Shown piece by piece: positions 4,425 through 63,808 of a stretch of 64,000 bases of DNA. Under the pieces are notes generated by a model that worked only from the letters and a program-made list of their open reading frames with translations, had not been told where the DNA came from and did not search any database. The stretch covers positions 93,534,488 to 93,598,487 of the forward strand of contig JARFYF010000001.1 of NCBI GenBank assembly GCA_030265395.1, given 5' to 3'. The translations under genes and the position numbers were made by a program. This DNA comes from Rhina ancylostomus. Its lineage: Eukaryota. Position 1 is the first letter of the stretch. Each line of letters starts with the position of its first letter.

Positions 4425-4880
4425 GTTTGCAGCAAGTGGACATCAGTAGTACTGTTAACATTTATTGTCCATTTCTAATTGCCCCTGAACTGAGATGGTA
4501 GTTAAGAGTCAATCACATAATTGGGACTGGTCAGGCCAAGTGAGGATGACCAATTTTCTTCCCTGAAGGGCAGTAGTGAACCAAATGGGTCTTTAAGTGC
4601 GATCCAGTGATTTTATGGAAAAGCTGCGGTTGGTGGATATCTGAAATGTCAACAGAAAATGCTCGGTATTCAGTAGCCCAGTAAGCACCTGCAGAGAAAG
4701 AAAAATAGAATTGATGTTTCAGATCAATGATCTTGCATCAGAACCGTTACTGTTAGTAAGACTTTTTTTTTATGTTCCAGATTATTTCGGTTACTTCAAA
4801 TTCCCTAGCTGTCATGGTGGGATTCAAATTCCTGTCAATGATAGAACCCCAACTGCTGTCCAATAACTCAGCTGTCCTTG
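4425..4880 (-). mobile_element. tRNA-derived SINE sharing its 3' tail with the Zenon/Crack-like LINE, interrupted by a Penelope fragment
   Basis: catttattgtccatttctaattgcccctgaactgag tail, ttccctgaagggcagtagtgaaccaaatgggt body and B-box-like gtgggattcaaa near 4820. Confidence 0.65.
4625..4744 (-). mobile_element. Penelope-derived short element with degenerate hammerhead motif
   Basis: Reverse complement of 4708-4744 reads gtt CTGATGC a agatc att gatct GAAACATC aat. Confidence 0.65.
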
Positions 4881-13814: not shown

Positions 13815-14930
13815 GTTCTGAAATAATAAAAAAACACAAAATGATGATGCTAAGCAGATGTGGCAGAATCTGCAAAGAGGGAGTTAGATTTAATGTTTCA
13901 TCAGAACCAGGAACTTTGAGAAAAGTAGTGTGCTTTAAGTTGCAGAGCAGGAAGAATTGTGGAGAGAACAAGGGAAGGCCAACCATGGGGTGGAGATTGA
14001 ATGATGCAGATGATGCCAGTTCAGAGAGGGTGTTGAAGGCTTGTAAATGATAACTCATCTGCCTGGAAGGGTTGCAAATGAAGGTGAGAGGGGGAAAAAA
14101 GTAGTTGATGCTCGAATTGAGATACAAAATACTGCAATTGCTGGAAATACTCAGCAACTCGGGCAGCATCTGTGGTGAGAGAAAAATGGAAGTTAAAATT
14201 GCAGGTGATAACTTTTCAGCAGAACTAGCCACTCTTGTTGCACATAGGAAAGGCTGGTTATCTGAAACTGTTGCTCAGTGTTGAAATATGACTGCTGTAA
14301 TGTACCTAGTCAAACAATGCAATTCTGTTGCTTGACCTTGCATGGAACAGTGGTTTTCAATGCATGGGGCGCAACTTGCAAAATATTAAAAAGTAGGTGG
14401 CAATCTATGCTCTTTGAAGTAAACACTGGTGTACAGACTGGTGAGCTAATTGGGTTGCAGAGCTGAAGCATTTGGTTCAAGTCATCTGAAAAATGGTTTG
14501 AAAGCTACTGGTTTAGTAAGTTGGAGTGGGAATGGAATGGAGACTAAAGTGATGGGCAAATGAAAGCCTCTCACTCTTTGGACTGAACAGAGATATTCTG
14601 CAAAGTAGTCATTCAATGTGACATTTGGTTTCCTGAAAGATAGAGGAGACCACATTGTGTGTACTGAATGCACACACGAGATTGGAAGAGGTGCAAATGA
14701 ATATCTGCTTCACTTGTAAGGCATGTTTGGGTCCCTTGCCGCTGAAAGGCATGCATTGCATCTCCTGATCTTTAATTTCTCACTTTTTTTCCTTGTTCTG
14801 ATGAAAGGTTATTGACCCAAGCCACTAACTCTCGTTTCTCTAGGTACATTTGATGCCTGACCTGCTGAATGTTTCCAGAATTCCTGGGTTTTTTTCTGGT
14901 TTCCAGCATCTGCAATATTTTACTTCTTTG
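13815..14930 (-). mobile_element. Old Penelope-like element remnant (GIY-YIG region plus inverted terminal arms)
   Basis: Minus strand of 14480-14740 gives HSVHTMWSPLSFRKP...LNDYFAEYLCSV, homologous to the LGDRVAEHLRS region at 50790-50830. Arm sequences lie at 13820-13900 and 14130-14230, with an opposite-orientation arm at 14795-14920. Confidence 0.75.
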
Positions 14931-21755: not shown

Positions 21756-23199
21756 GCTAAGATAGCCAAAGTAATTTTCAATCAACCAAGTGTTTTGAAG
21801 TGTAGACACTTAAATTAAGATGGGTAGTAGGGTTCAGAAAGATTAGGTTATTGAAGTGAAATGATTGTTGTTACATTGTGATTTACGATTTCACGTAAAA
21901 GAAGTTGGCACTCTGGAACTGGTTGAGGCATGGAGACTGAAAGGATAGCTTTGACTTTTCCAGCTTTAAGCAGTAGCGGGAGTGAGATTTGTGGGAAGTT
22001 TTGTTAACATTTTCTGTATGCCATTTACAATAGTTTACAACACTTCAAAGACTTGGTTAAAAATTTTTCAAGACCACAGCACTTAGTGAAATGACTTGCA
22101 ACTGTTAAGGTAGTTTTAAACCAAGAGGATCAAGTAACTATTGCAGAATGCTGTAAGTTAAACTTGTAATGTAAAAGATTCATGAATTTGGTCACTTTTT
22201 CAGCTGTGTGCAGTGACCTTCAGTCTTTGTCTCCTCCGATTAGTCCTTCTGATTTGCTTACCAAACGCCCACACATTTGCATGTGTGTGAATGAGGCAGA
22301 GGCTGGCAAGTTCATTTGAAGAGAGTGCCACTGTCACGAATTTTTGGACATTGTTACCTTTATGTTCAATACCTGCTATGTAGTGTAGTTTAATGTTTCA
22401 AAGGATTCATCATGAAAAATAATCTGAAATTCATTTCTTGCCTTGAATAGCAATGGTTTCTATTCCCCTCTGTCACTCCCCTCCCCCATCCCAATACAAA
22501 ATTATCCTTGCAATTGGTTATTCATATTTGTATTGTGTCTGATTAAGATATCTTGAGCTCATAATAACCCCTGCTGCTCATTTTCCTTCTGTTAAACAGT
22601 GTAGGAGAAGATGATATTCCCTTGGGTGTAGAAAAATAAGGCATTTGATTTCTTTTTCAAATTCAGTTTGGGACTATATTCTGCATAATGACTCAAAGCA
22701 AATATTTGTTCCAATTCCATTTCATCTCTGAAATGATCATTACCTCAGTGATATGGGGAGATAGTGTTAGTAAAAGTTTTTTCTTTTGCGATACTCATAA
22801 TGATGTTTGAAAGTTTTCTTTATGATATTCCATTTATCTAAAATCAGTGAAGTTCATCAAACATTGAGAGTTCATTGATTTATTGTCTATGTTGCTTGAG
22901 ATAATGGGGTGTATACTTGGTGAATACAGTTTTGAGTCCAGTATTTAGATCAAGCTCTCTTCCCCAGTCGTCCTCATAATTATCACATTGTTGTACCTTT
23001 CTGCTGCATATTCTATTCTCTATCAAAATATCCACACTAGACAAGCTACACAAATCCAATTTCTTTTTCACCGTTCTTTATATCTCTACATCTTTAAACA
23101 GCAACATACAAACCTGAAGAATAATACAATGCCTCTTTGATTTACATGGGTAGAAGTCTTCCAATTTCTGAGAATAATTGAAATAAAATTGCTGGAAAT

Positions 23200-23362
23200 T
23201 TGAAATAAAATGGAAAAATACTGGAAATATTGAGCAGGTCACACAGCATCTGTGAAAAGCGAAGCAGTTAATGCTTCTGATTGACCTTTCGTCAGAACTG
23301 TAACGTTAACTATTTCTCTTTCCACAGATGCTGTGTGACCTGAATGTTTCAAGTATTTTCTG
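23200..23362. mobile_element. Penelope-derived fold-back element (two inverted arms)
   Basis: aggtcacacagcatctgtgaaaag (about 23236-23259) is inverted relative to ctttccacagatgctgtgtgacct (about 23318-23341). A degenerate hammerhead core lies on the minus strand at 23265-23300. Confidence 0.8.
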
Positions 23363-23524
23363 GGGTGGAGGGGGGGTGGTTTCCCCCTCTAGCACATAAT
23401 TGTATGGAAAGATTCTGTTAGGACTGCTTTTGTCAATAATATCAGTTTATTAACTGATGAATTATTTTTCCTTTGGGCTAATGAAATCATTATATCTGTT
23501 CTTTTCACTCATGGCAGTTGGCAG

Positions 23525-26262: not shown

Positions 26263-28544
26263 TCATTGGGGGAAAAAATCAATGTAATCTCTGCTGAAGT
26301 TATGAAAACTCACAGTTGGCAGCACTCAGGAATGTTCAATAACAGTTAATAACTCTGGTATATTTACTGAATAGGGAAGTTCAATATCTAAACTGGTTTG
26401 AAGTGGAATACTTAAACGGGACAAGTGCAGGTTGCATTGTGAAGATCAGAGGAAAAAAAGATTTGCCTTTTCAGCCATCTTTGTATTTCCCTGGAGATGT
26501 GTATTTCCTGTGACTTCTGCGGTCTTATGTACGATTCAAGTCTCGAGCATTTTGTGCTCTTTCCCCCTCCCGAACTCTCACTTTCTTCAATGGAACAAAA
26601 ATAAGTTAATGGCATTCTGTTTTGTTTCCACACCCCAACATGAAGTATGGAGGTCTGGTTATTTTGTTGATAAAACAGGCTTGAGGTTATCCCTAAACAA
26701 TATTTGCAATTCCAAACAACAAATCTGAATCACTGAGGAATCAAAGGGTTGGTAAGCATACCTTGGGTTAAATTGCTATCTGTATCACTTTCCCTGGTGC
26801 ATTTTGTTGCCAACACTATTATTATAAAATTAGGGTATCTGTTGGTATGTGATAAATATTACAAACATATGTAATAAATATTCCAAAGCTAGGAGGTGAA
26901 AGTGGAAATAGAAATGGCACTGTGGGTTGTGTTGGAGGTGGTTTGATATTATTCTGCCATTTGTGTTATTCAGTACCAGCATCTGTAATACTGCTGTGTA
27001 AAGAGTTCCTCCAAGAACTGAGTACTGCTTATTCATGTGAGCTTGGAATGAGGTTTCCTTGTAATTATGGTGGATTTCCATGATCACAAATGGCTTTTTT
27101 TTTACAGTGGCATCCTAAATAATGAGTTAAAGCTGCCTTGTTGAGTTTTAGTTTTGAAGCTGGCACTGAATCCTTGTTTTTTTTTCCCTTCCATAAATCC
27201 TTCCCCATGTGTTGCTACATGCAGAACAGGTGCAGAGATTGTTGTCAAAATGACATTTTGTCCTACTGTGATAAAAGTAGTGGAATGAGGGGATTTCTCT
27301 GTCATTTAACTGCATTGTGATATCTTCGTAAAGTTGCCAGAAAGAAATAGACACCTGAAGGGGAAAAAAACAGGAAAACAGTGAGAACCTGGGGGAAAGT
27401 ATAACTTGATGACTGGCTGGGGTGAAGGGAAGAATGTAGACTGATGACTGAAGGGCTGGGNNNNNNNNNNNNNNNNNNNNNNNNNNNNNNNNNNNNNNNN
27501 NNNNNNNNNNNNNNNNNNNNNNNNNNNNNNNNNNNNNNNNNNNNNNNNNNNNNNNNNNNNNNNNNNNNNNNNNNNNNNNNNNNNNNNNNNNNNNNNNNNN
27601 NNNNNNNNNNNNNNNNNNNNNNNNNNNNNNNNNNNNNNNNNNNNNNNNNNNNNNNNNNNNNNNNNNNNNNNNNNNNNNNNNNNNNNNNNNNNNNNNNNNN
27701 NNNNNNNNNNNNNNNNNNNNNNNNNNNNNNNNNNNNNNNNNNNNNNNNNNNNNNNNNNNNNNNNNNNNNNNNNNNNNNNNNNNNNNNNNNNNNNNNNNNN
27801 NNNNNNNNNNNNNNNNNNNNNNNNNNNNNNNNNNNNNNNNNNNNNNNNNNNNNNNNNNNNNNNNNNNNNNNNNNNNNNNNNNNNNNNNNNNNNNNNNNNN
27901 NNNNNNNNNNNNNNNNNNNNNNNNNNNNNNNNNNNNNNNNNNNNNNNNNNNNNNNNNNNNNNNNNNNNNNNNNNNNNNNNNNNNNNNNNNNNNNNNNNNN
28001 NNNNNNNNNNNNNNNNNNNNNNNNNNNNNNNNNNNNNNNNNNNNNNNNNNNNNNNNNNNNNNNNNNNNNNNNNNNNNNNNNNNNNNNNNNNNNNNNNNNN
28101 NNNNNNNNNNNNNNNNNNNNNNNNNNNNNNNNNNNNNNNNNNNNNNNNNNNNNNNNNNNNNNNNNNNNNNNNNNNNNNNNNNNNNNNNNNNNNNNNNNNN
28201 NNNNNNNNNNNNNNNNNNNNNNNNNNNNNNNNNNNNNNNNNNNNNNNNNNNNNNNNNNNNNNNNNNNNNNNNNNNNNNNNNNNNNNNNNNNNNNNNNNNN
28301 NNNNNNNNNNNNNNNNNNNNNNNNNNNNNNNNNNNNNNNNNNNNNNNNNNNNNNNNNNNNNNNNNNNNNNNNNNNNNNNNNNNNNNNNNNNNNNNNNNNN
28401 NNNNNNNNNNNTGTTACTTTTTTTAAATGAACTTTGTAACTAAATGTCCTCAGTTTTATTAAAACCTTGAAGCCTCCATGTAATAACTACATTGGAAGAA
28501 ATCATAGAAAAAAAAATTGAAAAAAATGCCACCTGTGCATAAAA

Positions 28545-28665
28545 TAAACCAAAAACATTCTCCAGAAGGAACTCCCTGGGTTAGGCAGCATCTGTGAAAG
28601 GAAATGGACGGTCAACATTTTAGGTGGAGACCTGATTGCAGCATCTGCAATCTCTTGGGTCTCCC
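28545..28665. mobile_element. Penelope-derived short element with a strand switch
   Basis: ggaactccctgggttaggcagcatctgtgaaaggaaatggacggtcaacattt (minus arm) followed by cagcatctgcaatctcttgggtctcc (plus tail). Confidence 0.7.
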
Positions 28666-34025: not shown

Positions 34026-34139
34026 GTGGCCTCTTCAACTGACTAAATTTAGGTATGCAAATTTGAATTCGGCCAGAGTGTTTGAAATGAATATTTTAAT
34101 TTAATTCACTGGTGAATTAAAATGGGTTGATAACGCTTA

Positions 34140-34240
34140 ACTAAAAACAGGAAATGATGGATGCACTCAGGAGGTCAGGCAGCATCTAAGGAAGGAGAAA
34201 CAGCCTTAATATTTTGGGTTGAAGACCCTTTGTCAGAATT
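34140..34240 (-). mobile_element. Penelope-derived short element
   Basis: actcaggaggtcaggcagcatctaaggaaggagaaacag...gggttgaagaccctttgtcagaa (decayed hammerhead on the minus strand). Confidence 0.7.
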
Positions 34241-35022
34241 CTATTAGATTTGATTTCTTTCAAGAATGTTCTCAGTCAGATGCTTGTCTGTGGTATGAAG
34301 ATTTTCCCGGCAAGGTGCTCTTGATTTTGCTGGTCTTGTTAGTATGGAAATAGTGAAAATATTTGATTTGTCTGTAACTTGAGTAGAAATGGAACAATTA
34401 GGACTCAAGAAAGTTTTCTGCTGGTCAAGTCCATGCTGACTCCCTTGGATTAGTCAGTACTGTTCTCCTGCTCTTTCTCCAGAGCTCTGCACATTATTTT
34501 TCCTCAATTGTCTTTTAAATTACCTTTTGAAAATGATGATTAACTCTGTTTTNNNNNNNNNNNNNNNNNNNNNNNNNNNNNNNNNNNNNNNNNNNNNNNN
34601 NNNNNNNNNNNNNNNNNNNNNNNNNNNNNNNNNNNNNNNNNNNNNNNNNNNNNNNNNNNNNNNNNNNNNNNNNNNNNNNNNNNNNNNNNNNNNNNNNNNN
34701 NNNNNNNNNNNNNNNNNNNNNNNNNNNNNNNNNNNNNNNNNNNNNNNNNNAATTCTTAGTCATAATCACATTGTGCTTAAAGTTTTTCCTCAAACCCCCA
34801 TTATACCTTTTGCCCAAAAATAAATTCATGTCCTAAGACTTCGAGTCATTTGCTGAAGGGAACAGCTTCTCTCAATTTACCCAACCAGATTTGTGATCTG
34901 GAATATCTCTTCTTTGCTCCATTTTAGATCTCTGGGTATACCAAAATAGTTTGCAGTTCCTGAAGTACTTTTGAATTGTATTCATTCTTACAATGCAGCC
35001 AAAAGTACTGAATAAATAGATT

Positions 35023-35615
35023 CACAAGAGACTGCTGTTGCTGGAATTCAGAGCAAAAAACAAACTGCTGGAGGAACTCAATGGACCAGGCAGCATCGAT
35101 GGAGGGAAATGCAGAGTTGGATCTCAGATGGAGTTTGATAGGAAAGGAAGGTGGAGCAGGGAACCAAATAAGGGATGTGTGGTGGGCCTACACCCCCAGC
35201 CCCCAACAACCAGTCTCTTACTCCTGCACCTACTCCATCTGCCCATCATCCACGTACTTATCCCACCCCTCAATGTTCCCTTTGGCCCACCCCACCTCCT
35301 TTATTTGGATCCATGCTCCACTTTCCTATCCAGTTCTATCATCTGCAGCCCTCCGTCACCTCCATCAATTGCCTTCCAGCTTCATTTGCTATTTCCACAC
35401 TTCTCTCAATCTGCCAAACACCCCTCCTTGCCTGGATCCATTTATCAGTTGCCAGCTCATCCCCACCCTTCCACTCACCTCTTATACTGGCTAACCTGCC
35501 TCTACTCTTTCAGCCCAAATCAAGGGTCATGACCCAAAACATCAACTGTCCATTTTCATCCACAGATGCTACCTGACCCACAGTTCCTCCAGCAGTTTGT
35601 TTCTGATACTGAATC
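35023..35615. mobile_element. Non-autonomous Penelope derivative with inverted terminal arms and a pyrimidine-rich interior
   Basis: aaacaaactgctggaggaact (about 35058-35078) is inverted relative to agttcctccagcagtttgttt (about 35582-35602). Decayed hammerhead at 35511-35548. Confidence 0.8.
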
Positions 35616-36290
35616 TCTGCCTCCTCCTGAAATCCCTGCATCACAATACCAATCGTCAACCAATTTCATTCACTCCACGTGATGTAAATAAAATAGCTGA
35701 CAACATTGGACAGAGCAAATGCCATGGGACCAGACAACATTCCAGCTGTAATACTGAATATCTTTACTTCAGAACTAGCTGCACCTGTAATGAGCTGTTC
35801 GTGAACAATTAATGTGCCCAGGAAAATCCTGTTCACAAAATTCAATCTAATCCAATCCTGCTAATTACCACCCAGTAAAGTGATGGAAGGTGTTAGTGAT
35901 GTCAGGCTGTATTTACTCACCATGATCTCCTCACTGATACCCAGTTCAGGTTTCACCAGGATCACTTAGCTCTGCACCTCATCACAATGCTGGTTCAAAC
36001 ATGGACCAGACAGTGAAATTCCAGCAGTGAGATGAAAGTGACTGCCTTTGACATCATGGCAGCATCTGAGCAAGTGTGGCATCGAGGAAAGCTTGTAAAA
36101 CTGAAGGCAAGGGGACATCAAGAGAAAAATACTCAAGTGGTTGGAGTACGCTGAAAAATACTTGCATAAGGAAGATGATGGTGGTTGTTTCAGGTCAATT
36201 ATCCCGGTCCTGGGACATCACTGAGCAAACACCTTCAAGGCAGTTTTCTGGGATCAACCTGCTTTAACAATGACTTTCCTTCTGCATGCA

Positions 36291-36650: not shown

Positions 36651-36741
36651 CATCATAAGGTCAGAAGTGTTCAGTTTGCAACTTCTCAGCCAATGAAGCA
36701 GTCCATACCTGCATGCAGCAAGACCCTGACATTAGGGCATA

Positions 36742-36903
36742 TAACAAACTGCTGGGGGAACTCAGCGGATCAGTCCAGAGGAAGGGACTCGACTTGAAAC
36801 ATCGACTGTCCATTTCCCTGCACAGATGCTGACTGACCTGCTGAGTGTCTTTCAGCAGTTTGTCTTGTTCCAGATTCCAGCGTCTGCAGTCTCTTGTGTT
36901 TCA
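36742..36903 (+). mobile_element. 162-bp Penelope-derived insertion with a 13-bp TSD (acattagggcata)
   Basis: Direct repeat at 36729-36741 and 36904-36916. A short inverted arm precedes the hammerhead-bearing unit. Confidence 0.85.
36771..36808 (+). ncRNA. Minimal type-I hammerhead ribozyme motif, mutated
   Basis: cagtc CAGAGGA agggactcgactt GAAACATC gactg: stem I cagtc/gactg is perfect, core is mutated. Confidence 0.55.
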
Positions 36904-37435
36904 ACATTAGGGCATAGTCTGATAAGTAACTTTCATTTCACAAAGCTGTGGATCAATAGCCATTTCTAACGAGATGGAGTTAAATCACCCATTATTTGAT
37001 GTTCTGTGGCATTACTGTTGCATCCTGGGGGCCACCATTGAACAGAAACAGGTCAGAGGTTGGCTACCTTGTGGCAAGTGACTCATTACTTGAAACCTCA
37101 AAGGCTTTCCATCAATTGCAAGGCACAAGTCAGGAGTAGGAGAGAAGACTCTCCACTTTCTTGGATGAGTGTAGCTTCAACCAGACTCATGAAGCTTGAC
37201 ACTATCCAGAACAAAGCAGCCCATTTGATTGGTTCCCCATCCACTATCCAAACCATTTATTCCCTACACAAATGGAGCAGAATAGCTGCATTATGTACCA
37301 TCCACAAAATGTAGTTCTTCGCCTCAGCTATTTCAACAGTACCTTGCAAACCTGTAAACCTACCATTTAGAAGGACATAGGCACCCGTAGTTTCCTCTCT
37401 GGGATGCGCATGGTCTTGTAGCGGTATGGTTTTGA

Positions 37436-37489
37436 GGCAGCACAGTAGTTTTGCAGTTAGTGTAACGCTATTACAGCGCCAGTGACCTG
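37436..37489 (+). mobile_element. V-SINE head truncated by an assembly gap
   Basis: ggcagcacagtag...gcagttagtgtaacgctattacagcgccagtgacc. Confidence 0.75.
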
Positions 37490-38240: not shown

Positions 38241-39299
38241 CATATCTTAATTAGGTACAACTCTAGGGCGTTCAGTTTCAGCCAGTGCTCTCGCTGTACT
38301 CGGTTGTAAGAGACCACAAAGTCTCAGAATATACCACTTACAGCGCTCTTTCCATGTTTACATTTGTTTTGATGAAAATGGTACTGTGGTTGGTCTTAAT
38401 TAAAACCAGACATATCTACAGAATGCGCAATCTCTTTGATGCTGTGGGGTTGTTCTAATTTTCAACAAGATTATGTTATAAACTTCACAACATTGCAGTA
38501 AGTGGACAGAAAGCTGCCTTTCCATCACTGATTCCTGCCATCAGGCTTCTCCCCCACCAGGGAGTGGATAGTGTTTAAAATCAGAAACTGAAGCCTGACC
38601 GCCAGCATCCACATATTTGGACAAATTACGACGAACGTTCTTGTGACTTTAATGCCTTAATATCATTGCCTGCTGTTGATTTGTAACTTTTGCACATGAT
38701 TCAATGATAAAACTTGGCAACAGATATTTTCCAAAGCTATTTCAGGTGGAATAGCACATTGTCAATCCCTCAAGGTAGAACTGATTGAGACATTCATCTG
38801 CTGCAAAATATTTCAGTGAGGCAAATTAATTCATGTAACTAATAGTGATGTGGGAATTTTGAGCTGAAAAAGTTACATTTAATATATATCAGTTGAGCAA
38901 AATTAAATTAAAGAAAATTTTGCATTTATGTATCGCCCCTGATGACCTTGGAACATCTCAAAGCACTTAACTAATGAAGAATCCACTGACTACATTTGTT
39001 CCACCAACTCCTCAGATGATCTGATTTCCCAGATAAGATGTAGCAGCAGATCTCACTGTCATGTCCAATTAATTTGGAGGGAATTAGACAAATTCAAGAA
39101 ACTTTATTTGCGAAGGTTTCCTCGGTGAGGGACTGGCACCTAATAAATGACCAGCAAAATATTGATGTTGATGAAGTCTTCTGAAATGAATGAATACAAT
39201 TAACAACACCATAACCTTCATACTTCCCCTATCCAAGAGTGGACTTTTAACATCCCATTACCCTTGTACTGCTCTATGCTGGCAATATTACCTGTTCCC

Positions 39300-39417
39300 T
39301 CTCAGCGCTAATGCAAGATCTTGACCTGAAACATCAACTTGCATTTTTTGCCTTTGCAGATGCTGCTAGACATGCAGAATTCTTCCAGCGTCTGTTCTTG
39401 TTCTAGATTCCAGCATC
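39300..39417 (+). mobile_element. Penelope-derived short element
   Basis: ctaatgcaagatcttgacctgaaacatcaac...gcagatgctgctagac...tagattccagcatc. Confidence 0.7.
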
Positions 39418-39419
39418 AA

Positions 39420-39675
39420 ATCAGCATCAGCAACCCAGGTTCAAATCTGGCTATTGTCTGTAAGGAGTTTGTACGTTCTCACTGTGTCTGCATGGGTTTC
39501 TTCCAGGTGCTCGGTTTCCTCCTATATTCCAAAAGATGTACAGGTTAGGAAGTTGTGGGCATGCTACGTTGGCACTAGAAGCATGGCAACACTTGCGGGC
39601 TGCCCCCAGAACACTGTGCAAAAGATGTATTTCACTGTGTTTTGATGTACCTGTGACGCAGTAAGATATCTTCTT
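39420..39675 (+). mobile_element. HE1-like V-SINE, 5'-truncated, Rex-like tail type
   Basis: ggttcaaatctggctattgtctgtaaggagtttgtacgttctc...caaaagatgtatttcactgtgttttgatgtac. Confidence 0.9.
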
Positions 39676-44395: not shown

Positions 44396-45396
44396 ATTAC
44401 CAGTACTTCATATCAAGTACAGGCGCCAGCTGATGAATGTTGAACTTCTGAAGCACCTCTGCTCTGCATCACCTGAGGCCTTGGCACACACTAAGGAATT
44501 AGTTGGCACCTTTCCAGGTGCAGCACACCTCCTAACTCATCCATTGTGTTTTGTTTTAACCATGCCAAGCATTTCTTATCCTTGATTTGAGATCCAGATT
44601 TAATGAGCAGGTCATTCCCCAGCAACGCATTTTAGACATCTGTAAGCTGGCTTGAGATAATGAATAACATAGCAATAAACTGTGAAAGCCAAATAGGAGC
44701 AATAATAATTATCTATTGGCACTTTGAAAGCCTTTCTAATAAATAATTATACAAGTAAATGTTCTTGTTGAGCTTGGAAAGATCCTTCTGTCTTGCAATG
44801 CAGGCCAGCTTCAGAGCCAGGAAACTGAGAATTAAATTAATATCTTCTGACCGAGAAATGCTGTGAAAGCTATGTTTACATTAAGTAGTCAAGGTGAGAA
44901 CTGTAATGTCACTGGTTCATTGATGATGCAAATAGGCATGAAACAGCAAACTTATAGACGTCACTGTCTTCAGGGAATTGTATGTTGAATATATTTCTCA
45001 GCCTGCTGGCTCACGTTTTGAAGCTCTTTCTTTCCTGTGCAGCCGAGTCAATGGTGAAGCCACTCAAGTGCAGCAGCTGTGTGTGATGCTGCACCAGCTG
45101 GCTCTTGAAGCAAGCCCAGGTTATGATTTATTTTTTCTGCTGGTGTCTTGTTTGATGGCCGTGGAAGGTATTGGATTGGTTCTGTTGGCAGGATTTGCTA
45201 TTTGCTGCACTGACAATATCCATTGGCTGACTTCCAGCGTACCCTACAGCATGATAAGGCATCCATTTGATTTATTAATCCAGTGTAATTTATTACATTG
45301 TTTATGTGCTGTTCAGTCAGGCCCATCCATTAGATAAAGGGTCAGGTGGTTTGAACTCTTTCATTGGGTGGCTAAGCTAGGCTTTGGAAATGGGGC

Positions 45397-45575
45397 AGAG
45401 ACGCAAAGGACTGCAGATGCTGGAATCTAGGTGAAAAACACTGTGGTGCTGGAGGAACTAAGCAGGCCAGGCGTCATCCATGGACAAAAGCAGGCAGTCA
45501 ACATTTCGAGTTGGGACCCTTCTTCAGGACTGAAGATAGGAAAGGGGGAAGCTCATATATAGGAGGAAAAGCAGG
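45397..45575 (-). mobile_element. Penelope-derived short element
   Basis: ggactgcagatgctggaatc...gctggaggaactaagcaggccaggc...hammerhead...purine-rich flank. Confidence 0.85.
45495..45532 (-). ncRNA. Minimal type-I hammerhead ribozyme motif
   Basis: Reverse complement reads cagtc CTGAAGA a gggt ccca actc GAAATGTT gactg. Stem I (5 bp), stem II (4 bp with one G-U) and the CUGANGA/GAAA core are intact. ACGTC has decayed to ATGTT by two CpG transitions. Confidence 0.65.
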
Positions 45576-45950
45576 GAAATGGGGCACATGGCTTAAGTGC
45601 TTAAGCCATCTTATCCCTGGGAGATGAGGCTAAAAATGGAGCGTAATGTGGTTGGATGTGCCATTGATATGATTGAAGAGAAGATCATAGGGCTCAAACC
45701 AAACTATTATTCAGCCCCAGGCCAACACGACAGAACAGTTGTTTAAAAGCATAAAAATGAGTACTGTAAATCTGCTTTTTAAAACAAAAATCATTGGAAA
45801 TAATCAACAGTACAGGCAGCAATCTGCCTGTTCAGACTGATAAACAGATCATCAATTCTATTAGAAGGCTATTGATCAGAAACATTTACACCATTTCTCT
45901 CTCCAGAAGCTGCCTGACTTGTGAATATTTGCAGAATTGTCAGTACATTC

Positions 45951-46240
45951 AGGGCAGCACAGTGGCTCAGCCAGTGGAGCCACTGCCTTAGAGTGACCTG
46001 GATTCCATACTGACTTCGGATGCTAACGATGTGGAGTTTGCATGTTCTCCCTGTCACTGCGTGTGTTTCCTCTAGGTGCTCCGGTTTCCTCCCACTTCCT
46101 GAAGGCATGCGAGTCTGTAGGCAAATTGATCATCACAAATTTCCTGTGCTGTGGGCAAGAGGTCGAATCTGGGGAAGAGTTAAAAATTTGGTGAGGAAAA
46201 AATGAGGATCAGTGAAAATGGGTGTTTGATGGTCGGTGCT
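45951..46240 (+). mobile_element. V-SINE (older subfamily)
   Basis: gggcagcacagtggctcagccagtggagccactgcc...tgtggagtttgcatgttctccctgtcactgcgtgtgtttcctctaggtgctccggtttcctcccac. Confidence 0.85.
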
Positions 46241-46249
46241 AAAACAGGT

Positions 46250-46975
46250 TTTTTTTTCTCTTTCCCTCTCCTCCCTTTCCTTCCTCACTTCCCCCCACCC
46301 AATCTACTGGTCCTCCCATTTTTGTCCCCCTTTCCACCCTTCTCCCCTGACAGTCCTCCTCCATCCATCTTGGTCCCTTGCCCTCTCCTGGCTCCATCCA
46401 GCCAGCACACACAGGTTTCCCCACCCCCACCCCCCCCAATCTGGTTCCATCTGTCGTTCACTTTTCCCCTAATGGTTCCCATTCTCTCCTCCTTATCCAG
46501 AACTGGTAGGGCTTTGTGATCCTGCTGATCTCCCTCGTATCTTTACACTCTCCTCCCTCCACCTTGCTCAATCTATTGTTTTTCCTTTTATCTACTCGAC
46601 TCCTTTAATAGTCTGCCTCCATCTATCATTCACCTGCCACAGTCTTCCAATTCCACCCCCACTCCCCTCCCTGGCACTGCCTACCTGTTATCTGATACCC
46701 CTCCTCTGTCTNNNNNNNNNNNNNNNNNNNNNNNNNNNNNNNNNNNNNNNNNNNNNNNNNNNNNNNNNNNNNNNNNNNNNNNNNNNNNNNNNNNNNNNNN
46801 NNNNNNNNNNNNNNNNNNNNNNNNNNNNNNNNNNNNNNNNNNNNNNNNNNNNNNNNNNNNNNNNNNNNNNACTGTCAGTCCTGATGCAGGGCTTTCACCT
46901 GAAACGTCGACAATTTCTTTCCTCCCACAGATGCTGCACGACCTGCTGAGTTCCTCCAGCACATTGTTCTTCCCA
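46250..46975 (+). mobile_element. Penelope 3'/pLTR region: C/T-rich tract, gap, then hammerhead-bearing unit
   Basis: Pyrimidine-rich tract like 35200-35510, ending ...cacagatgctgcacgacctgctgagttcctccagcacattgtt. Confidence 0.75.
46878..46911 (+). ncRNA. Minimal type-I hammerhead ribozyme motif (CUGAUGC variant)
   Basis: gtc CTGATGC agg gctttca cct GAAACGTC gac: retains the palindromic ACGT stem III and the GUC cleavage triplet. Confidence 0.6.
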
Positions 46976-49429: not shown

Positions 49430-51060
49430 AAAAAAGAGCACAGGACCTCAACCCCGCACTTCCTGTTTCTATCCCTTGCCCAAGATCCACAAACAGAACT
49501 GTCCTGGGAGGCTTATTGTTCCTGCCTGCTCTTGCCTCCACCAAAGTTATCTCCTCGTACCTCAACTCCATCTTGTCCCCGCCCCCCCCCACCCCACCTT
49601 GTCCCATCCCTTACCACCTATATCTGGGACACCTCCACCATTTAGACAACTTATAATTCCCTGGCCCCCAATGCCTTATCTTCACTATGGAGCCCAGTCT
49701 TTTTGCACCTTCATCCCCTATCAGGAAGGTCTAAAAGCCCTCTGCTTCTCTCTACAACAAAGATCCAACCAGTTTCCCTCCTCCAACACTCTCATCTGCT
49801 TGGCTGAACAACTTCTTGCCTTAAACAACTTCTCTTTTGACTCCTTCCACTTGTGACAAATCAAAGGTGTAGCCATGGGCCCCCCCCCCCATGGGTCCCA
49901 ACTCTGCCTGTCTTTCTGTTGGCTCTGTCCAACAGTCCCAACAGTTCCAAATCTTCTCCAGTACAACTTCCCAACTCTTCCTCTGTTACATTGATGACTG
50001 CACTGGTGCTGCTTTCTGTACCTGTGCAGAACTCATCAATTATATCACTTTCATTACCAACTTCCACCCTGCTCTCAAACTTATGTTGACCATTTCTGCC
50101 ACTACTCCCCTTTTTCTCGATCTCTCTGCCTCCATCTCAGGAGAAAAACTATCCACTGATATTTACTATAAACCCACTGACTCTCACAGCTGCTAAGATG
50201 ACATCTCTTTTCATCCTGTCTCTTGTAAGGATGCCATTCTTCATCTCTGCCACATCTGCTCTTAAAATGAGGCTTTCTGTTCCAGGGCAACTGAAATGTC
50301 CTTTTTCAGGAAGTGTGGCTTCCCTTCTGCTGTGGTTGATGGAACGTGATCTTGTATCTCTTCTGTTTCTCGTACTTCTGCTCTCATCCCGCCTCCCCCC
50401 ATACAAAACAGAGATAGAGTTCCCCTGGTCTTTCACCCTATGAGTCACTGCATCCAACATATCAATCTTCATCATTTCCACCAGCTGCAACAAGATTGCA
50501 CTACCAGCCACATCTTCTCCTCCCCACCCTTTTCTGCCTTCCCCAGCGACCACTCCCACTGTGACTCCCTAGACCGCTCATCCGTCTCCACCCACCCCTC
50601 CATTTCCCCGGCACTTTCCCCTGCCATCTCAGTAAATGGAACACTTGAACTTTCACCTCCTCCCTCACCATCATCCAGGGTCCAAACAGTCCTTCCAGGT
50701 GAGGCAAAGGTTCACACACACCTCCTCCAACCTTGTCCACTGCATTCAGTGTTTTCAACGTGGCCTCCTCTACATCAGCAAGACCAAGTGTAGACTCGGT
50801 GACCGTGTCGCAGAACACCTACGCTCACTCCACAATGGCCATTCCGAGCTCCCAGTTGCAGACCATTTCAACTCCCCTTCCCATTCTCACACGGACCTGT
50901 CCGTTCTTGGTCTTCTCTACTCCCAGGATGAATCCTAATGCAAACTGGAGGAGCAACACCTTGTATTCTGCCTGGCGAGTCTGCAACCCAATGGCATTGA
51001 CTATTGACTTTTTCCAATTTTAGGTAACAACCCTCACATTTCCACGCCACCCCCACCAAC
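49430..51060 (+). mobile_element. Penelope-like retroelement: RT plus GIY-YIG endonuclease ORF, pseudogenised
   Basis: PKIHKQNCPGRLIVPACSC; LALNNFSFDSFH; KGVAMG; MGPNSACLSVG; FLCYIDDC; LFLDLSASISGEKLSTDIYYKPTDSH; FTHTSSNLVHCIQCFQRGLLYISKTKCRLGDRVAEHLRS. Multiple stops and frameshifts. Confidence 0.95.
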
Positions 51061-55104: not shown

Positions 55105-55440
55105 GGGCAGTATTGCAGCACAGCATGCAATGCTGCTGCATTATATCTCTGGTGACATGTGTTTGATCTTGACCTCAAGTGCTGCAGATGTGAAGTTTGC
55201 ACAATCTCCCTGTGACTCTGTGGGTTTTCCTGGGCGCTCCTGTTTGCTCCATGTCCCATAGACATGCTGGATGATAGATTTGCAGTTAGCTGTTGTAAGT
55301 TTCCTGTGGTAGGTGGGTTGTATGAGAATAAAGGAATGGAGGGATGTATGCTATGCAGGGATATATACATATGTGTGTGTGTATATATAATCATGGTTGG
55401 CACGGACATTATGGGACAAAGGGCTTGTTCCTGTGCCGTA
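55105..55440 (+). mobile_element. V-SINE, old and degraded
   Basis: gtgaagtttgcacaatctccctgtgactctgtgggttttcctgggcgctcctgtttgctcc and CR1-like tail atgggacaaagggcttgttcctgtgccgta. Confidence 0.75.
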
Positions 55441-55448
55441 CAGCTTCA

Positions 55449-55762
55449 GGGCGGCACAGTAGTGTAGCGGTTAGCGTGACACTATTACAGCGCCAGCAAT
55501 CGGTTCGATTCCCATTGCTGCCTGTAAGGAGTTTGTACGTTCTCCTGTGTCTGCGTGGGTTTCCTCCGGGTGATCCAGTTTCCTCCCACATTCNNNNNNN
55601 NNNNNNNNNNNNNNNNNNNNNNNNNNNNNNNNNNNNNNNNNNNNNNNNNNNNNNNNNNNNNNNNNNNNNNNNNNNNNNNNNNNNNNNNNNNNNGTTTAAA
55701 ATGGGTGGCGTGGACTTGTTGGGCCGGAAGGGCCTGTTACCACGCTGTAAATAAAATTTAAT
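55449..55762 (+). mobile_element. HE1-like V-SINE, young, CR1-like tail type (gap inside)
   Basis: gggcggcacagtagtgtagcggttagcgtgacactattacagcgccagc...gttgggccggaagggcctgttaccacgctgtaaataaaattt. Confidence 0.9.
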
Positions 55763-57718: not shown

Positions 57719-58677
57719 ATAGCTCATCTAACTTGGTTTGGAAAGCAATTAGAATGGACAGCAAATGTATGCTGAGTCAGTGACATTCACATGCTGTGAA
57801 TGAACGAGAAAAACTTTTCGCTGTTGCAACAGTATAGTTTTTGAATTGTTTGCAAAGCAAAGGATTTGAAAGTCTGAAGGAAACCTGTTGAAATGTTAAT
57901 GGAGTCTTTTATGACTGCTTTGTTCGATGTCAAAGGCAAAATTCAACATGCTGGGATTAGGCAATGGCAGCTTCAGTAAATGCAATTGGAAGTGTTGGGG
58001 AGTCTGACCAAGATATTTGGACAGCAGGGAGAAGCATGATGCTAATAACCACTTAAAACTCTGATGTTAATTATGTTTATGTTGTACATTTGGCCTTGTA
58101 TTTCCCATAAAATCACTAAACTGTGTTTCAGAGAAACTATGTCTGGTTCAAACAGGATTTCAGTAAAAAGGATTATTGCTTGTACTGCTCACGGCTACGA
58201 GTTATGTTCAGAAGGAATATTCCCTCTTTATGTGCTTTCCCAACTCTGTTCCCAAGTGGTTTCAGACTTATTTGGCAGTGATGAAATTCAGCATCAGTTG
58301 TCGCATATAATTAAGCCTTTTGTTGGTCTGGAATTGCACAGCATTGATCGTTGGTTGCCATTTCAGGGGGCACGGCAGGGCNNNNNNNNNNNNNNNNNNN
58401 NNNNNNNNNNNNNNNNNNNNNNNNNNNNNNNNNNNNNNNNNNNNNNNNNNNNNNNNNNNNNNNNNNNNNNNNNNNNNNNNNCAATCTGTTCCAAGAAGCT
58501 GAAGACATAACAGTGCTTTAACTATCACAGGAGAATGAGCAAGTGATGATTTCCCACCTCTTTTGTCCCCCTGCTTTCCCTGAGGTTGAGGGGGGTTCAA
58601 TGACATGAGAAATTCAGCCTGTTGGTGATTCTACTGCATGCTTGTGCCTCAGGACACATCAGAAACCTTCTTCTCCA

Positions 58678-58809
58678 CTGATGAAGGGTCTTGGCCTGAA
58701 ACATCGACTGTTTATTTTCCTCCATGGATGCTGCCTGACCTGGTGAGTTCCTCCAGCACTTTTTCTGTATTGCTCCAGATTCCCGCATCTGGTGACATTC
58801 TTGTGTCTC
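58678..58809 (+). mobile_element. About 130-bp Penelope-derived insertion with a 14-bp TSD (ccttcttctccact), starting at the hammerhead core
   Basis: Direct repeat at 58666-58679 and 58810-58823. CTGATGA a gggtcttggcct GAAACATC gactg at 58678-58710. Confidence 0.85.
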
Positions 58810-59104: not shown

Positions 59105-59185
59105 GTTTCGGCTTGACATGTAGACTTTCCATTTCCCTCCATGGATGCTGCCTAACCCACTCAGTTCCTCCAGCTTTTTGTGTGA
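59105..59185 (+). mobile_element. Penelope-derived fragment
   Basis: ccatttccctccatggatgctgcctaacccactcagttcctccagctttttgtgtg. Confidence 0.7.
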
Positions 59186-59529
59186 AGCTAAATGGTATAT
59201 TTTCAGTGGGTTTAATCTATTTGCTCATTTGATTTAATAGCTTGACCTTTTCAAAAATCTTTGCATGATCTGTGGCTGTCTGCTATATTTTTTGTCAGAT
59301 CTGTCCAAATATTTGCATTGATGACTTGTGCAACTGACTTTTATTTTCTGTTGTTTTGGTGGACAACACAGTCTGATAGACATGGATCTTCCTGAAAGAG
59401 CCAACTGCTGCAAATAATGAGATAATGAGGGATTCCTTCCAAATTGTTAGCTCAAATTTTAAATGAATAGGTCTGTTTCGTACATCGAGCTAGGAGCAGG
59501 ATCAAGTTACTGGATAAATAATCCGAAAG

Positions 59530-59695: not shown

Positions 59696-59954
59696 NNNNN
59701 NNNNNNNNNNNNNNNNNNNNNNNNNNNNNNNNNNNNNNNNNNNNNNNNNNNNNNNNNNNNNNNNNNNNNNNNNNNNNNNNNNNNNNNNNNNNNNNCAGGA
59801 TCACATCAAACATGTTAGTGCTTGTCAATAGTAGCTTTTATTTATTTTTAGTATTTTAATTAAAAAAAGGTTCAGAAGAAAATAAAGTTGAATGTAAATT
59901 TGGAGAAAGGATATGAAAATAATTCTTTTACTACTAGCAGAGCAATAAAAGAAT

Positions 59955-60305
59955 AAACACATGCATATATATTTGTATATCATGAGCATGCACATGTACA
60001 AATATACGCCTACACACACATGCACAAAGACACACTATGGCCATGTATACATATAAATATGTATCCCTATACCTACATGTATACATACAACTTTGTGTGC
60101 ATATACCTATATATCTGTACATATACACTTGCTGTACATATTCACTTACTTACACACACATTTATGCATTTGAACACAAATGCAAACATACACAAGCATA
60201 TACATGCAGAATTATATGCCATATGTCCCCAGGTGAACATGCATACAGATCCAGACATATAAAACTCTATATATACATAAACACAAGCTCACACACATAC
60301 ACATG
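59955..60305. repeat. Degenerate (CA/TA)n low-complexity tract
   Basis: Alternating purine-pyrimidine sequence is directly visible. Confidence 0.85.
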
Positions 60306-60599
60306 AGAGAAGAAACAAAATAGCTTGTAAAGTGTTTAAGTGAAAAAGTAAGGCCTGAAGTGATAATAAGGGGCAGATTGGGATAAAGATATTTATGAAA
60401 CAGACAACATGTGAGAAACATAGGCCATGGGGAATAAGCAAGACAAAAATAGAAACAAGGAAAACTGGCAAAACCACAAAAGCAAAAAGCCATGAGAGAA
60501 GAAAAAAAACAACCTAGTTACTGTCAAAATACCACTTCTGTCATGTAACCATTGCCTGTTTCCAATTTAAAAAAAAGTACAGGCTGTTCTTTTATTTCT

Positions 60600-60987
60600 T
60601 GTGTATGTCTGTGTGTGTGTATGTGAATGAATGTGTATGTATGTGTGTTACACGTGTGTCTTTCATGCTGTGCATATGTGAATGTGTGTGATTACCTATG
60701 TGATTATCTGTATGTGAATCTCTGATTGTGTATGCATGTGTGTGAGTGTGCACCTATGTGTGTGAATGTGTGTGCGCTTAAATCAGTGAGTGCCCATGCA
60801 TGTGTGTGTTTGTCATGTGTTAAGTGTATTGCATGTTATGTGTGGGTGTGTTACATGTTTTGTGTATTATGTGCTTTGCATGTTCTGTGCTATGCTTATG
60901 TGGTGTTATGTGCATCACATGCTGTGTTTGTGCATGTTACTTATTTTGTCTGTTAGGTATTATGTGTATTGCATGCTGTGTGTGTTC
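60600..60987. repeat. Degenerate (TG/TA)n low-complexity tract
   Basis: Alternating purine-pyrimidine sequence is directly visible. Confidence 0.85.
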
Positions 60988-61299
60988 TCTCCTCTCCCCA
61001 TCTCTGTTTCTGTGGCTTTTTAATACACTGTTCACCTGCAGCTTCTTTGAGTCCCAGTGCATGATTAACATCTGAAATATCTCCTCTTTCCAAATTTATT
61101 TTTGGATTTCTGGCAGCTACATCATTTTTGTTTATTGTTTATCAGGAAGTAGGTACTGTGAGTCTACCAAAAAAAAGAAAACCTGCAGGCCCAACAGTTT
61201 ATGTTTGTTTGGAGGTGGATGCTTAGGACTGGGGAGAGCAATCACCAAACATTGTTGGACAGTCAAAGAAGATTCAAGTTTAAAAACATCTTACACTCA

Positions 61300-61889: not shown

Positions 61890-62795
61890 GGTAAGTTGGG
61901 TTATTATCACCATATGTACTGAGGTACAGTGAAAAACTATGTTTTGCATGCCATCTTATACAGATGATTTCATCACATCAGTACATCGAGGTAGAACAAG
62001 GGAAAAGCAGTAACAGAATGCAGAATAAAGTGTTACAGTGAAAGTGCTGTGCAGGCAGACAATAAGAAGCAAGGCCATGATGAGGTAGATTGTGATGTCA
62101 AGAGTCCATCTTGTCATACAAGAGGTCTGTTCAATAGTCTTATAACAGCGGGATAGAAGCTGTCCTTGAACCTGGTGGCATGTGCTTTCAGGCTTTTGTA
62201 TCTTCTACCTGATGGGAGAGGAGAGAAAAGAGAATGTCTGGGGTGGGTGGGGTCTTTGATTATGTTGGCTGCTTTACCGAGGCAGCGAGAAATGTAGACA
62301 GAGTCCATGGAGGGGGACGGGGGGTTGGAGCGGTGCTGGCTTTAACTGTGTCCACAGCTATTTGCAGTTTCTTATGGTCCCAGGCAGAGCAGTTGCCATA
62401 CCAAGCCCCGATGCATCAGGATTGGATGCTTTCTATGGTGCATCTATAAAAACTGGTGAGGGTCAACGAGGATATGCCAAATTTCTTTAGCCTTCTGAGG
62501 AAGTCGAGGTACTGGTGAGCTTTCGTGGCTATGATGTCTTTGTGATTGGACCAGGACAGGTTATTGGTGATGTTTACTTCTAGGAACTTGAAGCTCTCAA
62601 CCCTTTCAACCTCAGCACTGTTGATGTGCACCGCTCCCTTTCCTGAAGTCAATGACCAACTCTTGTTTTACTGACATTGAGGGAAAGGTTGTTGCCATGA
62701 CACCTTCCCATACTCCGACTCATTGTTATTTGAGATACAGTCCACTACGCTGGTGTCATCTACAAACTTGTAGATGGAGTTAGAGCAGAGTCTAC
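61890..62795 (-). mobile_element. Rex-Babar (Rex1-like) LINE, 5'-truncated
   Basis: Minus strand: IYKFVDDTSVVGL, VERVESFKFLEVNITNNLSWS, FLRRLKKFG..FYRCTIESI, SRCLGKAANIIKDPTHP..FKDSFYPAVIRLLN. Confidence 0.95.
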
Positions 62796-63120: not shown

Positions 63121-63437
63121 TACAAGTCCTCCCCAGCTTGTGAACACCTGATTTATGTACAGCTCAGAGGCACAAAAGACTGCAGATGCTGGAATCTGGA
63201 GCAACAAACAATGTACTGGTGGAACTTGGTGGATCAAGCAGCATCTGTGGGAGGAAAGGAATTAACAGCCCATACATCTGAACAAGTTTGAGAGACCCGG
63301 GAGCATGGATTTGCTGGCTTCCTTAGAGCTGCAGGCAAATTCTGCCACCTGGGAACCTCATTTCTGACTTGGGAACTGTTTGGGTTCAGAGAAGTTCATA
63401 GGAACGGATCCCTGTAATAACCTGGGGAGCACCTGGA
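63121..63437. mobile_element. Tigger/pogo-like MITE interrupted by a Penelope fragment
   Basis: Left TAcaagtcctccccagcttgt versus right-end reverse complement tccaggtgctccccaggttat. Interior shared with 2793-3187. Confidence 0.7.
63168..63263 (-). mobile_element. Penelope-derived fragment with a degenerate TSD (acagctca / acagccca)
   Basis: gactgcagatgctggaatctggagcaacaaacaatg...gcagcatctgtgggaggaaaggaatt. Confidence 0.8.
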
Positions 63438-63518
63438 CAGGAAAGTGGAAAGGAGATACAAAATTAGTCATGATCTTGTTGAATGGGTCAGCAAACACAA
63501 AGGGCCTAATTCTGTTGC

Positions 63519-63808
63519 AGGCACAGTAGTGTAGCAGTTAGTGCAACGTTATTACAGTACCAGTGACCCGGGTTCAATTCCGGCCGCAGTCTGTAAGGAG
63601 TTTTTACATCCTCCCGTGTCTGCATGGGTTTCCTCTGGGTGCTCTGTTTTCCTCCCACATTCCAAGGATGTCTGGGTTAGAAAGTTGTGGGCATGCTATG
63701 TTGGAGCCAGAAATGTAGCGACACTTGTGGGCTACCCCCACAACACTCTTCACAAAGATGTATTTCACTGTGTGTTTCAATGTACATGTGACTAATAAAG
63801 ACATCTTA
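63519..63808 (+). mobile_element. HE1-like V-SINE, Rex-like tail type
   Basis: ggcacagtagtgtagcagttagtgcaacgttattacagtaccagtgacccgggttcaattccggccgc...atttcactgtgtgtttcaatgtacatgtgactaataaag. Confidence 0.9.

What the first reader, a model, noticed from the sequence alone, without database searches (positions are those of the whole stretch)
45495..45532. Family of short Penelope-derived elements carrying a minimal (dimer-type) hammerhead ribozyme
Seen: about ten dispersed copies (4708, 14795, 23265, 34200, 35511, 36771, 39305, 45495, 46878, 58678) share stem I / CTGANG(A/C) / extra A / short stem II / GAAACGTC / stem I'. Stems co-vary between subfamilies: stem I is cagtc/gactg or cagtt/aactg, and stem II is gggt..actc or agatc..gatct. 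Stem III is only the palindrome ACGT, fully retained at 46904-46907. Established: Penelope-like elements carry minimal type-I hammerheads with palindromic stem III proposed to act as dimers. Inference: these 100-600 bp units are a retrozyme/SINE-like non-autonomous family mobilised by the Penelope RT/GIY-YIG element whose fossil lies at 49430-51060. No copy here is perfect, and most damage is CpG decay.
Basis: partly seen in the sequence, partly recalled or inferred. Interest (0 to 1): 0.7.

Follow-up and report, generated by a model that had tools for sequence, protein, structure and literature searches.

The report
Penelope retrotransposon stubs carrying minimal hammerheads
These short repeats are real and very abundant, but they are decayed end-stubs of a known kind of jumping gene (Penelope-like) with its already described self-cutting RNA motif; many start exactly at the motif's first letters, likely because the element's RNA begins there.

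Summary
Observation real: all 10 named sites hold a decayed minimal type-I hammerhead. The window has 18 profile hits, a random 0.94 Mb has 199 (control 0), and the genome has 3,606 intact cores (control 97). They are not retrozymes: of 42 adjacent pairs 3 are tandem and 35 head-to-head. They are the terminal repeat/5'UTR of several Neptune-type Penelope-like (PLE) lineages: the unit follows the GIY-YIG gene in 17 of 26 loci and precedes an open ORF in L101. The focal copy is a 177-bp truncated insertion with a 12-bp target duplication, from another lineage than the fossil at 49430. Covariation is weak (one stem-I pair). Extra detail: 5' ends pile up at the ribozyme's first base (2.9% junction rate vs 0.16% control), not at its cleavage site (0.19%). 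This fits run-off copying of uncleaved RNA to a transcript start (inferred, untested). Minimal PLE hammerheads, inverted ends and tails are published, and this scan already noted the same stubs and pile-up in this genome and others. Low interest.

The parts
45398..45574 (-). Focal insertion: 177-bp 5'-truncated PLE 3' end (subfamily C): 42 nt of 3'UTR, hammerhead, long tail
   Evidence: bounded by a 12-bp direct repeat
45495..45532 (-). Minimal type-I hammerhead, decayed (C15.2 to T, one stem II change); predicted cut after GUU between 45500 and 45499
   Evidence: folds into stems I and II, z -0.31
45386..45397 (.). Target-site duplication, 3' side of the element
   Evidence: identical 12-mer at 45575-45586
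45575..45586 (.). Target-site duplication, 5' side of the element
45398..45494 (-). Post-cleavage 'tail' reaching the distal of the two 3' end sites (equals PLE 5'UTR)
45533..45574 (-). Pyrimidine-rich 3'UTR remnant of PLE subfamily C
   Evidence: like the upstream of L102/L103
46873..46971 (+). Best-kept core in the window (subfamily D, CUGAUGC variant, ACGT intact at 46904-46907), next to an assembly gap
49439..51032 (+). Fossil PLE RT/GIY-YIG fragment with frameshifts and stops; D lineage; no hammerhead unit after it
   Evidence: tblastn E 2e-69 to an RT/EN relative; 66-67% to L101; tree
14107..14925 (.).
23190..23364 (.). Head-to-head pair; the long arm starts at the hammerhead 5' edge
35009..35624 (.). 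Head-to-head pair with 3'UTR remnants between the arms
36734..36902 (.). Head-to-head pair; the + arm starts at the hammerhead 5' edge
45734..45944 (.). Older head-to-head pair beside the focal copy
4618..4746 (-). Decayed unit (the agatc..gatct copy)
28540..28632 (-). Unit truncated inside stem II
34139..34240 (-). Decayed unit starting near the hammerhead 5' edge
39271..39417 (+). Decayed unit with 3'UTR remnant
58667..58809 (+). Unit of subfamily A1 with long tail
59105..59187 (+). Unit truncated inside the ribozyme
63164..63262 (-). Tail-only unit

Best explanation
The repeats are decayed insertion stubs of several Neptune-type Penelope-like retrotransposon lineages, each made of the element's own terminal repeat (minimal hammerhead plus about 65 or 100 nt of tail), and they likely arise when the element's enzyme starts copying inside the tail of an uncleaved RNA and either stops early or runs off a 5' end predicted to lie at the first base of the hammerhead. 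Shown here: identity with the PLE terminal repeat and 5'UTR, two 3' end sites about 35 nt apart, a sharp 5' end at stem I, no excess of ends at the cleavage site, and head-to-head pairs whose arms usually differ in tail length. From the literature: internal initiation at two sites, extension of both DNA strands, and a protein-assisted ribozyme that is dispensable in vitro (PMC11167929, Poseidon clade). Inferred: that the fixed 5' end is the transcription start (about 55%), that pairs come from both cut strands being primed (about 65%), and that the genomic stubs are dead on arrival.
For: The unit lies 75-1,001 nt downstream of the endonuclease in the same orientation in 17 of 26 EN-seeded loci and in the opposite orientation in 1 (3 short contigs skipped). 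L101 is a 3,210-nt monomer: EN - 3'UTR - hammerhead - tail - ATG 171 nt after stem I - frame open for 730 aa to the contig end, with weak Pfam hits to RVT_1 and GIY-YIG (both under the curated cut-offs) and relatives to E 1e-254. L099, on a large scaffold, has the same hammerhead-tail-ATG order. Hammerhead subfamilies sort with four well-supported endonuclease clades. Random 0.94 Mb: 35 head-to-head, 4 tail-to-tail and 3 tandem pairs; the longer arm starts at -42..-27 from the cleavage site in 26 of 35 pairs and further upstream in 1. Genome-wide junction rate: 210 of 7,345 at the 5' edge, 51 of 31,729 at a control site, 10 of 5,371 at the cleavage site (edge vs control p 6e-104, cleavage vs control p 0.71). 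In 39 of 40 fetched edge loci the profile match starts at -34..-32. 3' ends are bimodal: 75 and 49 of 171 scored copies in the two modes. In 21 of 24 scorable pairs the arms differ in tail length by more than 12 nt, the 5'-shorter arm having the longer tail in 12. The sequence around the edge reads YYAGTYC in all five subfamilies, which fits the initiator consensus YYANWYY (recalled).
Against: No transcript start was measured. A cap-derived extra G at the edge was not found (G:A 23:19 vs 8:9 in the control, p 0.77). YYAGTYC is also a 3' splice-site look-alike in a pyrimidine tract, and in D. virilis Penelope an intron ends at helix I (PMC4209133) while the start lies 46 bp before a 75-bp intron (PMC2377424). 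In the unselected sample the peak is milder: 28 of 85 vs 58 of 298 in simulation (p 0.012), and untruncated copies are mis-called there in 9 of 150 simulations and 1 of 16 real controls. The genome-wide rates rest on exact 16-mers of mostly subfamily A and on a purine-triplet proxy. Tail calls in pairs are noisy (several alignments end early). Automatic subfamily labels were wrong or spurious for about 6 of 27 rows of the EN tree. L101 is a small unplaced contig; I did not test whether it belongs to the host.
Confidence: 0.8

Rival explanations
1. The short unit is a true non-autonomous SINE-like element: stubs that begin at the start site keep an internal promoter and the enzyme's binding tail, are re-transcribed and seed their own copies.
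For: Fixed 5' and 3' ends; short copies outnumber long ones (16 or so of 100 reach 42 nt or more upstream of the cleavage site and beyond stem I); target duplications in 4 of 20 solo copies vs 11 of 380 controls; the Penelope promoter is internal (PMC2377424 abstract and passages).
Against: Each subfamily has both long and short copies, and no short-only subfamily appeared among the 103 copies scored; subfamilies track endonuclease clades. A deep tree of short copies was not built.
Confidence: 0.12
2. The fixed 5' end is not a transcript start but a processing or stalling point: a splice acceptor at the AG of stem I, 5'-3' exonuclease trimming that stops at the folded ribozyme, or a template jump favoured by stem I complementarity.
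For: Polypyrimidine tract plus AG before the core in all subfamilies; the D. virilis intron ends at helix I (PMC4209133); 5 of 40 edge loci join two arms through the shared stem I sequence; no cap G.
Against: No shared upstream exon was seen among the 40 edge loci; 21 of those 40 have no adjoining inverted arm; those stem-I junctions are over-sampled about eight-fold by the purine filter; simple fold-back cannot give the second arm a longer tail, as seen in 12 of 24 pairs.
Confidence: 0.3
3. They are retrozymes: tandem units that self-cleave as dimers, circularise and are copied as circles.
For: Intact cores exist (65 exact copies of one 38-mer; 3,606 intact cores); two exact copies lie 170 nt apart across an assembly gap; a preprint reports retrozymes in one chondrichthyan (bioRxiv 2026.07.22.740005 part 2).
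Against: 3 tandem vs 35 head-to-head pairs; no excess of copies beginning at the cleavage site; copies are not permuted around the cut but run from stem I to the tail; retrozyme hammerheads are described as canonical and in tandem repeats (PMC7229834 passages). Caveat: the assembly has many gaps beside these repeats and could hide arrays.
Confidence: 0.05

Closest known systems
Minimal hammerheads (min-HHR) in pLTRs of metazoan PLEs (Cervera and de la Pena 2014, PMC4209133; parts 1-2 of 4 read)
   Same: Type I fold, 4-5 bp stem I, extra nucleotide before stem II, palindromic 15.2-16.2 with no loop 3, thousands of mostly single copies ascribed to truncated PLEs, and opposite-strand pairs 100-700 bp apart.
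   Different: Stem II here is 4-5 bp (7-8 bp in the schistosome families). Subfamily D has C at position 9. The parts I read do not map copy ends.
Neptune/Nematis-type EN+ Penelope-like elements (Craig et al. 2021, PMC8557442; Arkhipova et al. 2013, PMC3846280; passages read)
   Same: Single RT + C-terminal GIY-YIG ORF, CX2-5CxxC linker, partial tandems, inverted 5'-truncated copies, optional 30-40 bp tail on one end, occasional target duplications.
   Different: Here most inserts are the bare 100-140-nt hammerhead-plus-tail end, with a sharp 5' boundary at stem I.
PAc (Poseidon, green anole) in vitro system (Frangieh et al. 2024, PMC11167929; parts 1-2 of 4 read)
   Same: Two internal initiation sites downstream of the hammerhead that define the tail; both strands extended; unprocessed RNA is the main template; no RNA ends found at the cut site.
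   Different: In PAc the ORF starts inside the ribozyme; in L101 the ATG is 171 nt after stem I, so the tail is untranslated. Different clade.
Non-LTR retrozymes (PMC7229834 passages; bioRxiv 2026.07.22.740005 parts 1-3 of 5)
   Same: Short, protein-free, type I hammerhead, related to PLE pLTRs, dispersed monomers exist.
   Different: Defined by tandem repeats with a ribozyme in each unit and by circular RNAs; here tandems are rare and pairs are inverted.

Membership tests
Minimal type-I hammerhead of PLEs | CUGANGA and GAAA cores with NUH, closed by stem I | tested here: met
   3,606 intact cores vs 97 control; window copies each damaged; subfamily D has CUGAUGC (25 of 141)
Minimal type-I hammerhead of PLEs | Extra nucleotide before stem II; palindromic zero-loop stem III | tested here: met
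   extra A in 136 of 141; A15.1-U16.1 in 36 of 37
Minimal type-I hammerhead of PLEs | Stem covariation | tested here: inconclusive
   82% of cells paired vs 15-38% when slid, but covariation score not above shuffles; one clearly compensatory pair
Minimal type-I hammerhead of PLEs | Located in the pLTR of an RT/GIY-YIG element | tested here: met
Minimal type-I hammerhead of PLEs | Self-cleavage as dimer or with protein help | not testable with these tools
   needs an in vitro assay
Neptune/Nematis-type EN+ PLE | One ORF with RT and C-terminal GIY-YIG | tested here: met
   L101 frames, weak Pfam hits, relatives annotated PF00078 + PF01541
Neptune/Nematis-type EN+ PLE | CX2-5CxxC linker between RT and EN | tested here: met
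   C-X4-C-X2-C before the endonuclease in L101; feature taken from PMC8557442
Neptune/Nematis-type EN+ PLE | RT phylogeny places it in Neptune rather than Nematis | not tested
Neptune/Nematis-type EN+ PLE | Partial tandems, inverted 5'-truncated copies, optional 30-40 bp tail | tested here: met
Non-LTR retrozyme | Tandem repeats with a hammerhead in each unit | tested here: not met
   3 tandem among 42 adjacent pairs, 199 hits; gapped assembly is a caveat
Non-LTR retrozyme | Unit-length linear and circular RNAs | not testable with these tools
   no raw RNA reads were served
Independent non-autonomous (SINE-like) family | Discrete ends | tested here: met
Independent non-autonomous (SINE-like) family | Own master lineage separate from autonomous copies | tested here: inconclusive
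   long and short copies share all subfamilies in 103 scored copies; no deep tree of short copies

The most novel reading that the evidence does not exclude
The roughly 400,000 stubs are a fossil read-out of PLE biology in vivo: transcription starts on the first base of the hammerhead, the enzyme primes both cut DNA strands from two sites in the 5'UTR and runs off that start, and the ribozyme does not cut the RNAs that get copied, so that even a lineage with a changed core base (CUGAUGC) spread widely.
Probability: 0.45. Interest if true: 0.5.

Novelty: new member of a known kind. Interest (0 to 1): 0.25.

Why it matters
As a ribozyme find it is ordinary: these motifs and their link to truncated PLEs were published in 2014. 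Its value is as a large natural sample of PLE insertion products (about 212 per Mb; by extrapolation some 4 x 10^5 copies). The mapped ends give testable coordinates for the transcript start and the two initiation sites in a Neptune-type element, and in vivo support for the in vitro result that ribozyme cleavage is not needed for insertion. I did not find the 5' pile-up at stem I in print, but this scan's own earlier notes report it.

Tried and rejected
Rfam at E<=10: no hammerhead family. Pfam on the window's fossil fragments and on P0001: no hit. Idea that copies begin at the cleavage site (fossil proof of cleavage): rejected. Cap-derived extra G: not found. Simple fold-back as the general origin of pairs: fits 5 of 40 enriched loci but not the 12 of 24 pairs whose second arm has the longer tail. 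A 3' splice site just before the tail's GATGCTG motif: dropped, because the CAG alternates with CGG, TGG and TAG among copies. The first degenerate genome pattern lacked one position and gave only 18 deletion variants (redone). RNA: no RNA holder listed for L101; four runs guessed to be RNA gave contigs only, with no interpretable splice joint or end; no evidence either way. Single-copy folding z-scores were unremarkable (-0.3 to -1.8). Lunse et al. (PMC5785218) was not held; I know it only from its title in a reference list. No supplements were opened; the alignments in the supplement of PMC4209133 may already include a cartilaginous-fish motif.

Full report
Observation. The motif at 45495-45532 is on the minus strand and has the layout described, with a damaged stem III. 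All 10 named sites hold a copy. A profile built from 41 natural copies finds 18 hits in the window and 199 in 936,667 non-N bases (five 200-kb blocks plus the window), with 0 in the reversed control. Genome-wide, 3,606 places keep both catalytic boxes against 97 for the reversed pattern. Rfam does not detect the motif. The host looks like a cartilaginous fish: the closest named protein relatives are from a stingray, a bamboo shark and a devil ray.

Covariation is weaker than claimed. On 37 copies 82% of cells pair (15-38% when partners are slid), but the covariation score is reached by 190 of 500 shuffles. Stem I pair 2.1-1.1 is C-G in one group of lineages and U-A or U-G in another.

What the unit is. 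Searching the genome with the fossil's endonuclease fragment gave loci in which the hammerhead-plus-tail unit follows the gene in the same orientation in 17 of 26 cases and in the opposite one in 1 (three short contigs left out). Contig L101 is a collapsed 3,210-nt monomer: endonuclease end, 3'UTR, hammerhead, tail, ATG, and a frame open for 730 aa to the contig end. It has a C-X4-C-X2-C linker, the mark of Neptune and Nematis elements (PMC8557442). L099 shows the same order on a large scaffold. So the unit is the pLTR and 5'UTR of autonomous PLEs. Five hammerhead subfamilies were visible by eye. They sort with four starred endonuclease clades; about 6 of 27 automatic labels were spurious or wrong. 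The window fossil lies in the D clade. The focal copy is subfamily C, a 177-bp insertion with 42 nt of 3'UTR and a 12-bp target duplication. At 14107-14925 the window itself shows unit, endonuclease remnants and inverted unit in one insert.

Arrangement. Of 42 neighbouring pairs closer than 150 nt, 35 are head-to-head, 4 tail-to-tail and 3 tandem. This is the inverted-end layout of PLE insertions (PMC3846280 and PMC8557442 passages; PMC4209133 notes opposite-strand pairs), not the tandem layout that defines retrozymes (PMC7229834 passages). The assembly has gaps beside many copies, so arrays could be under-counted.

Ends. 3' ends have two modes about 35 nt apart (75 and 49 of 171 scored; 28 of 199 hits could not be anchored). 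This matches the optional tail and the two initiation sites shown for PAc (PMC11167929). In 21 of 24 scorable pairs the arms differ by more than 12 nt, and the 5'-shorter arm has the longer tail in 12. That argues against simple fold-back and fits priming on both cut strands; several of these calls are noisy. 5' ends: 28 of 100 tail-anchored copies end at -35..-27 from the cleavage site, the first bases of stem I (22 of 125 hits failed the score or anchor filter and 3 next to gaps were dropped). Simulation shows a mild artefact, and the excess remains at p 0.012. In pairs the longer arm starts at -42..-27 in 26 of 35. A genome-wide proxy (three purines where the element has pyrimidines) gives 2.9% at the 5' edge, 0.16% at a control site and 0.19% at the cleavage site. 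I fetched 40 of the 210 edge loci (the first 20 with and the first 20 without C at -33 among the 100 listed): in 39 the profile match starts at -34..-32, 19 adjoin an inverted arm, and 5 join through the shared stem I sequence.

Mechanism. Most likely the PLE enzyme nicks DNA, starts reverse transcription at one of two sites in the tail, and copies an uncleaved RNA. Starting at the 3' copy of the tail gives ordinary truncated inserts such as the focal one. Starting at the 5' copy gives a 100-140-nt run-off product if the RNA begins at stem I. Both strands primed give head-to-head pairs. The start-site step is inferred from the sharp edge and an initiator-like sequence (consensus recalled). Against it, no cap G was found, and the same letters read as a splice acceptor, as in D. 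virilis (PMC4209133, PMC2377424). Whether stubs re-mobilise is open. Window copies are very likely inactive as ribozymes, since each has core or stem damage (judgement from recalled hammerhead requirements).

Comparison and novelty. It is a member of the PLE minimal-hammerhead kind on every feature I could test except covariation (inconclusive) and activity (untestable). It fails the retrozyme test. The pile-up at stem I was not found in six literature searches. I reached it before opening the scan's notes (note), which then showed the same reading on other DNA: 596 findings in at least 38 genomes hold the search words, and 6 notes in this genome fit. The two-strand priming idea came from those notes together with PMC11167929, and I tested it.

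Papers seen. PMC4209133 parts 1-2 of 4; PMC11167929 parts 1-2 of 4; bioRxiv 2026.07.22.740005 parts 1-3 of 5; passages only of PMC8557442, PMC3846280, PMC2377424, PMC7229834 and PMC6765202; Lunse et al. title only. No supplements were read.

Verdict. Real, abundant, known kind. Interest 0.25.

Noticed in passing
L101 (G000:C2762:1-3287): An intact-looking 3,210-nt PLE monomer. Contigs of 4 of 4 runs laid (four coded organisms, four studies) match it at about 99% or more over pieces up to 1,989 nt, and two runs join 3210 to 1 (tandem or circle). Points to a very young or horizontally shared family, or to a non-host contig.
   Followed up: partly
subfamily D, e.g. window 46881-46887 and L034, L036, L051: A whole lineage has C at hammerhead position 9 (25 of 141 copies) and a shortened stem I, yet spread widely with its own endonuclease clade.
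   Followed up: partly
L101:1075-1098 and L099:150-171: A pyrimidine tract and AG sit just before the ATG in two lineages, which looks like a splice acceptor for a 5'UTR intron. No spliced read was seen.
   Followed up: partly
L101:975-1050: The tail folds into one long hairpin (z -1.8) whose loop region and base lie near the two 3' end sites; a candidate binding and initiation element.
   Followed up: partly
L004/L005 (G000:C7:74622926-74623133) and L259: Two exact hammerheads 170 nt apart, and two edge motifs 131 nt apart, in the same orientation but separated by assembly gaps; may be scaffolding duplicates rather than tandems.
   Followed up: no
window 16018-16256, 37421-37489, 39422-39623, 46033-46104, 55435-55593, 63502-63756: A second abundant repeat family that looks like a tRNA-derived SINE (identification recalled, not tested).
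   Followed up: no
window 47-316 / 62032-62302 and 598-916 / 16380-17189: Pairs of 80-97% similar repeats that look like LINE fragments (not tested).
   Followed up: no
window 59950-61000: Long (TG/TA)-rich low-complexity tract that gives spurious microRNA matches below the Rfam cut-offs.
   Followed up: no
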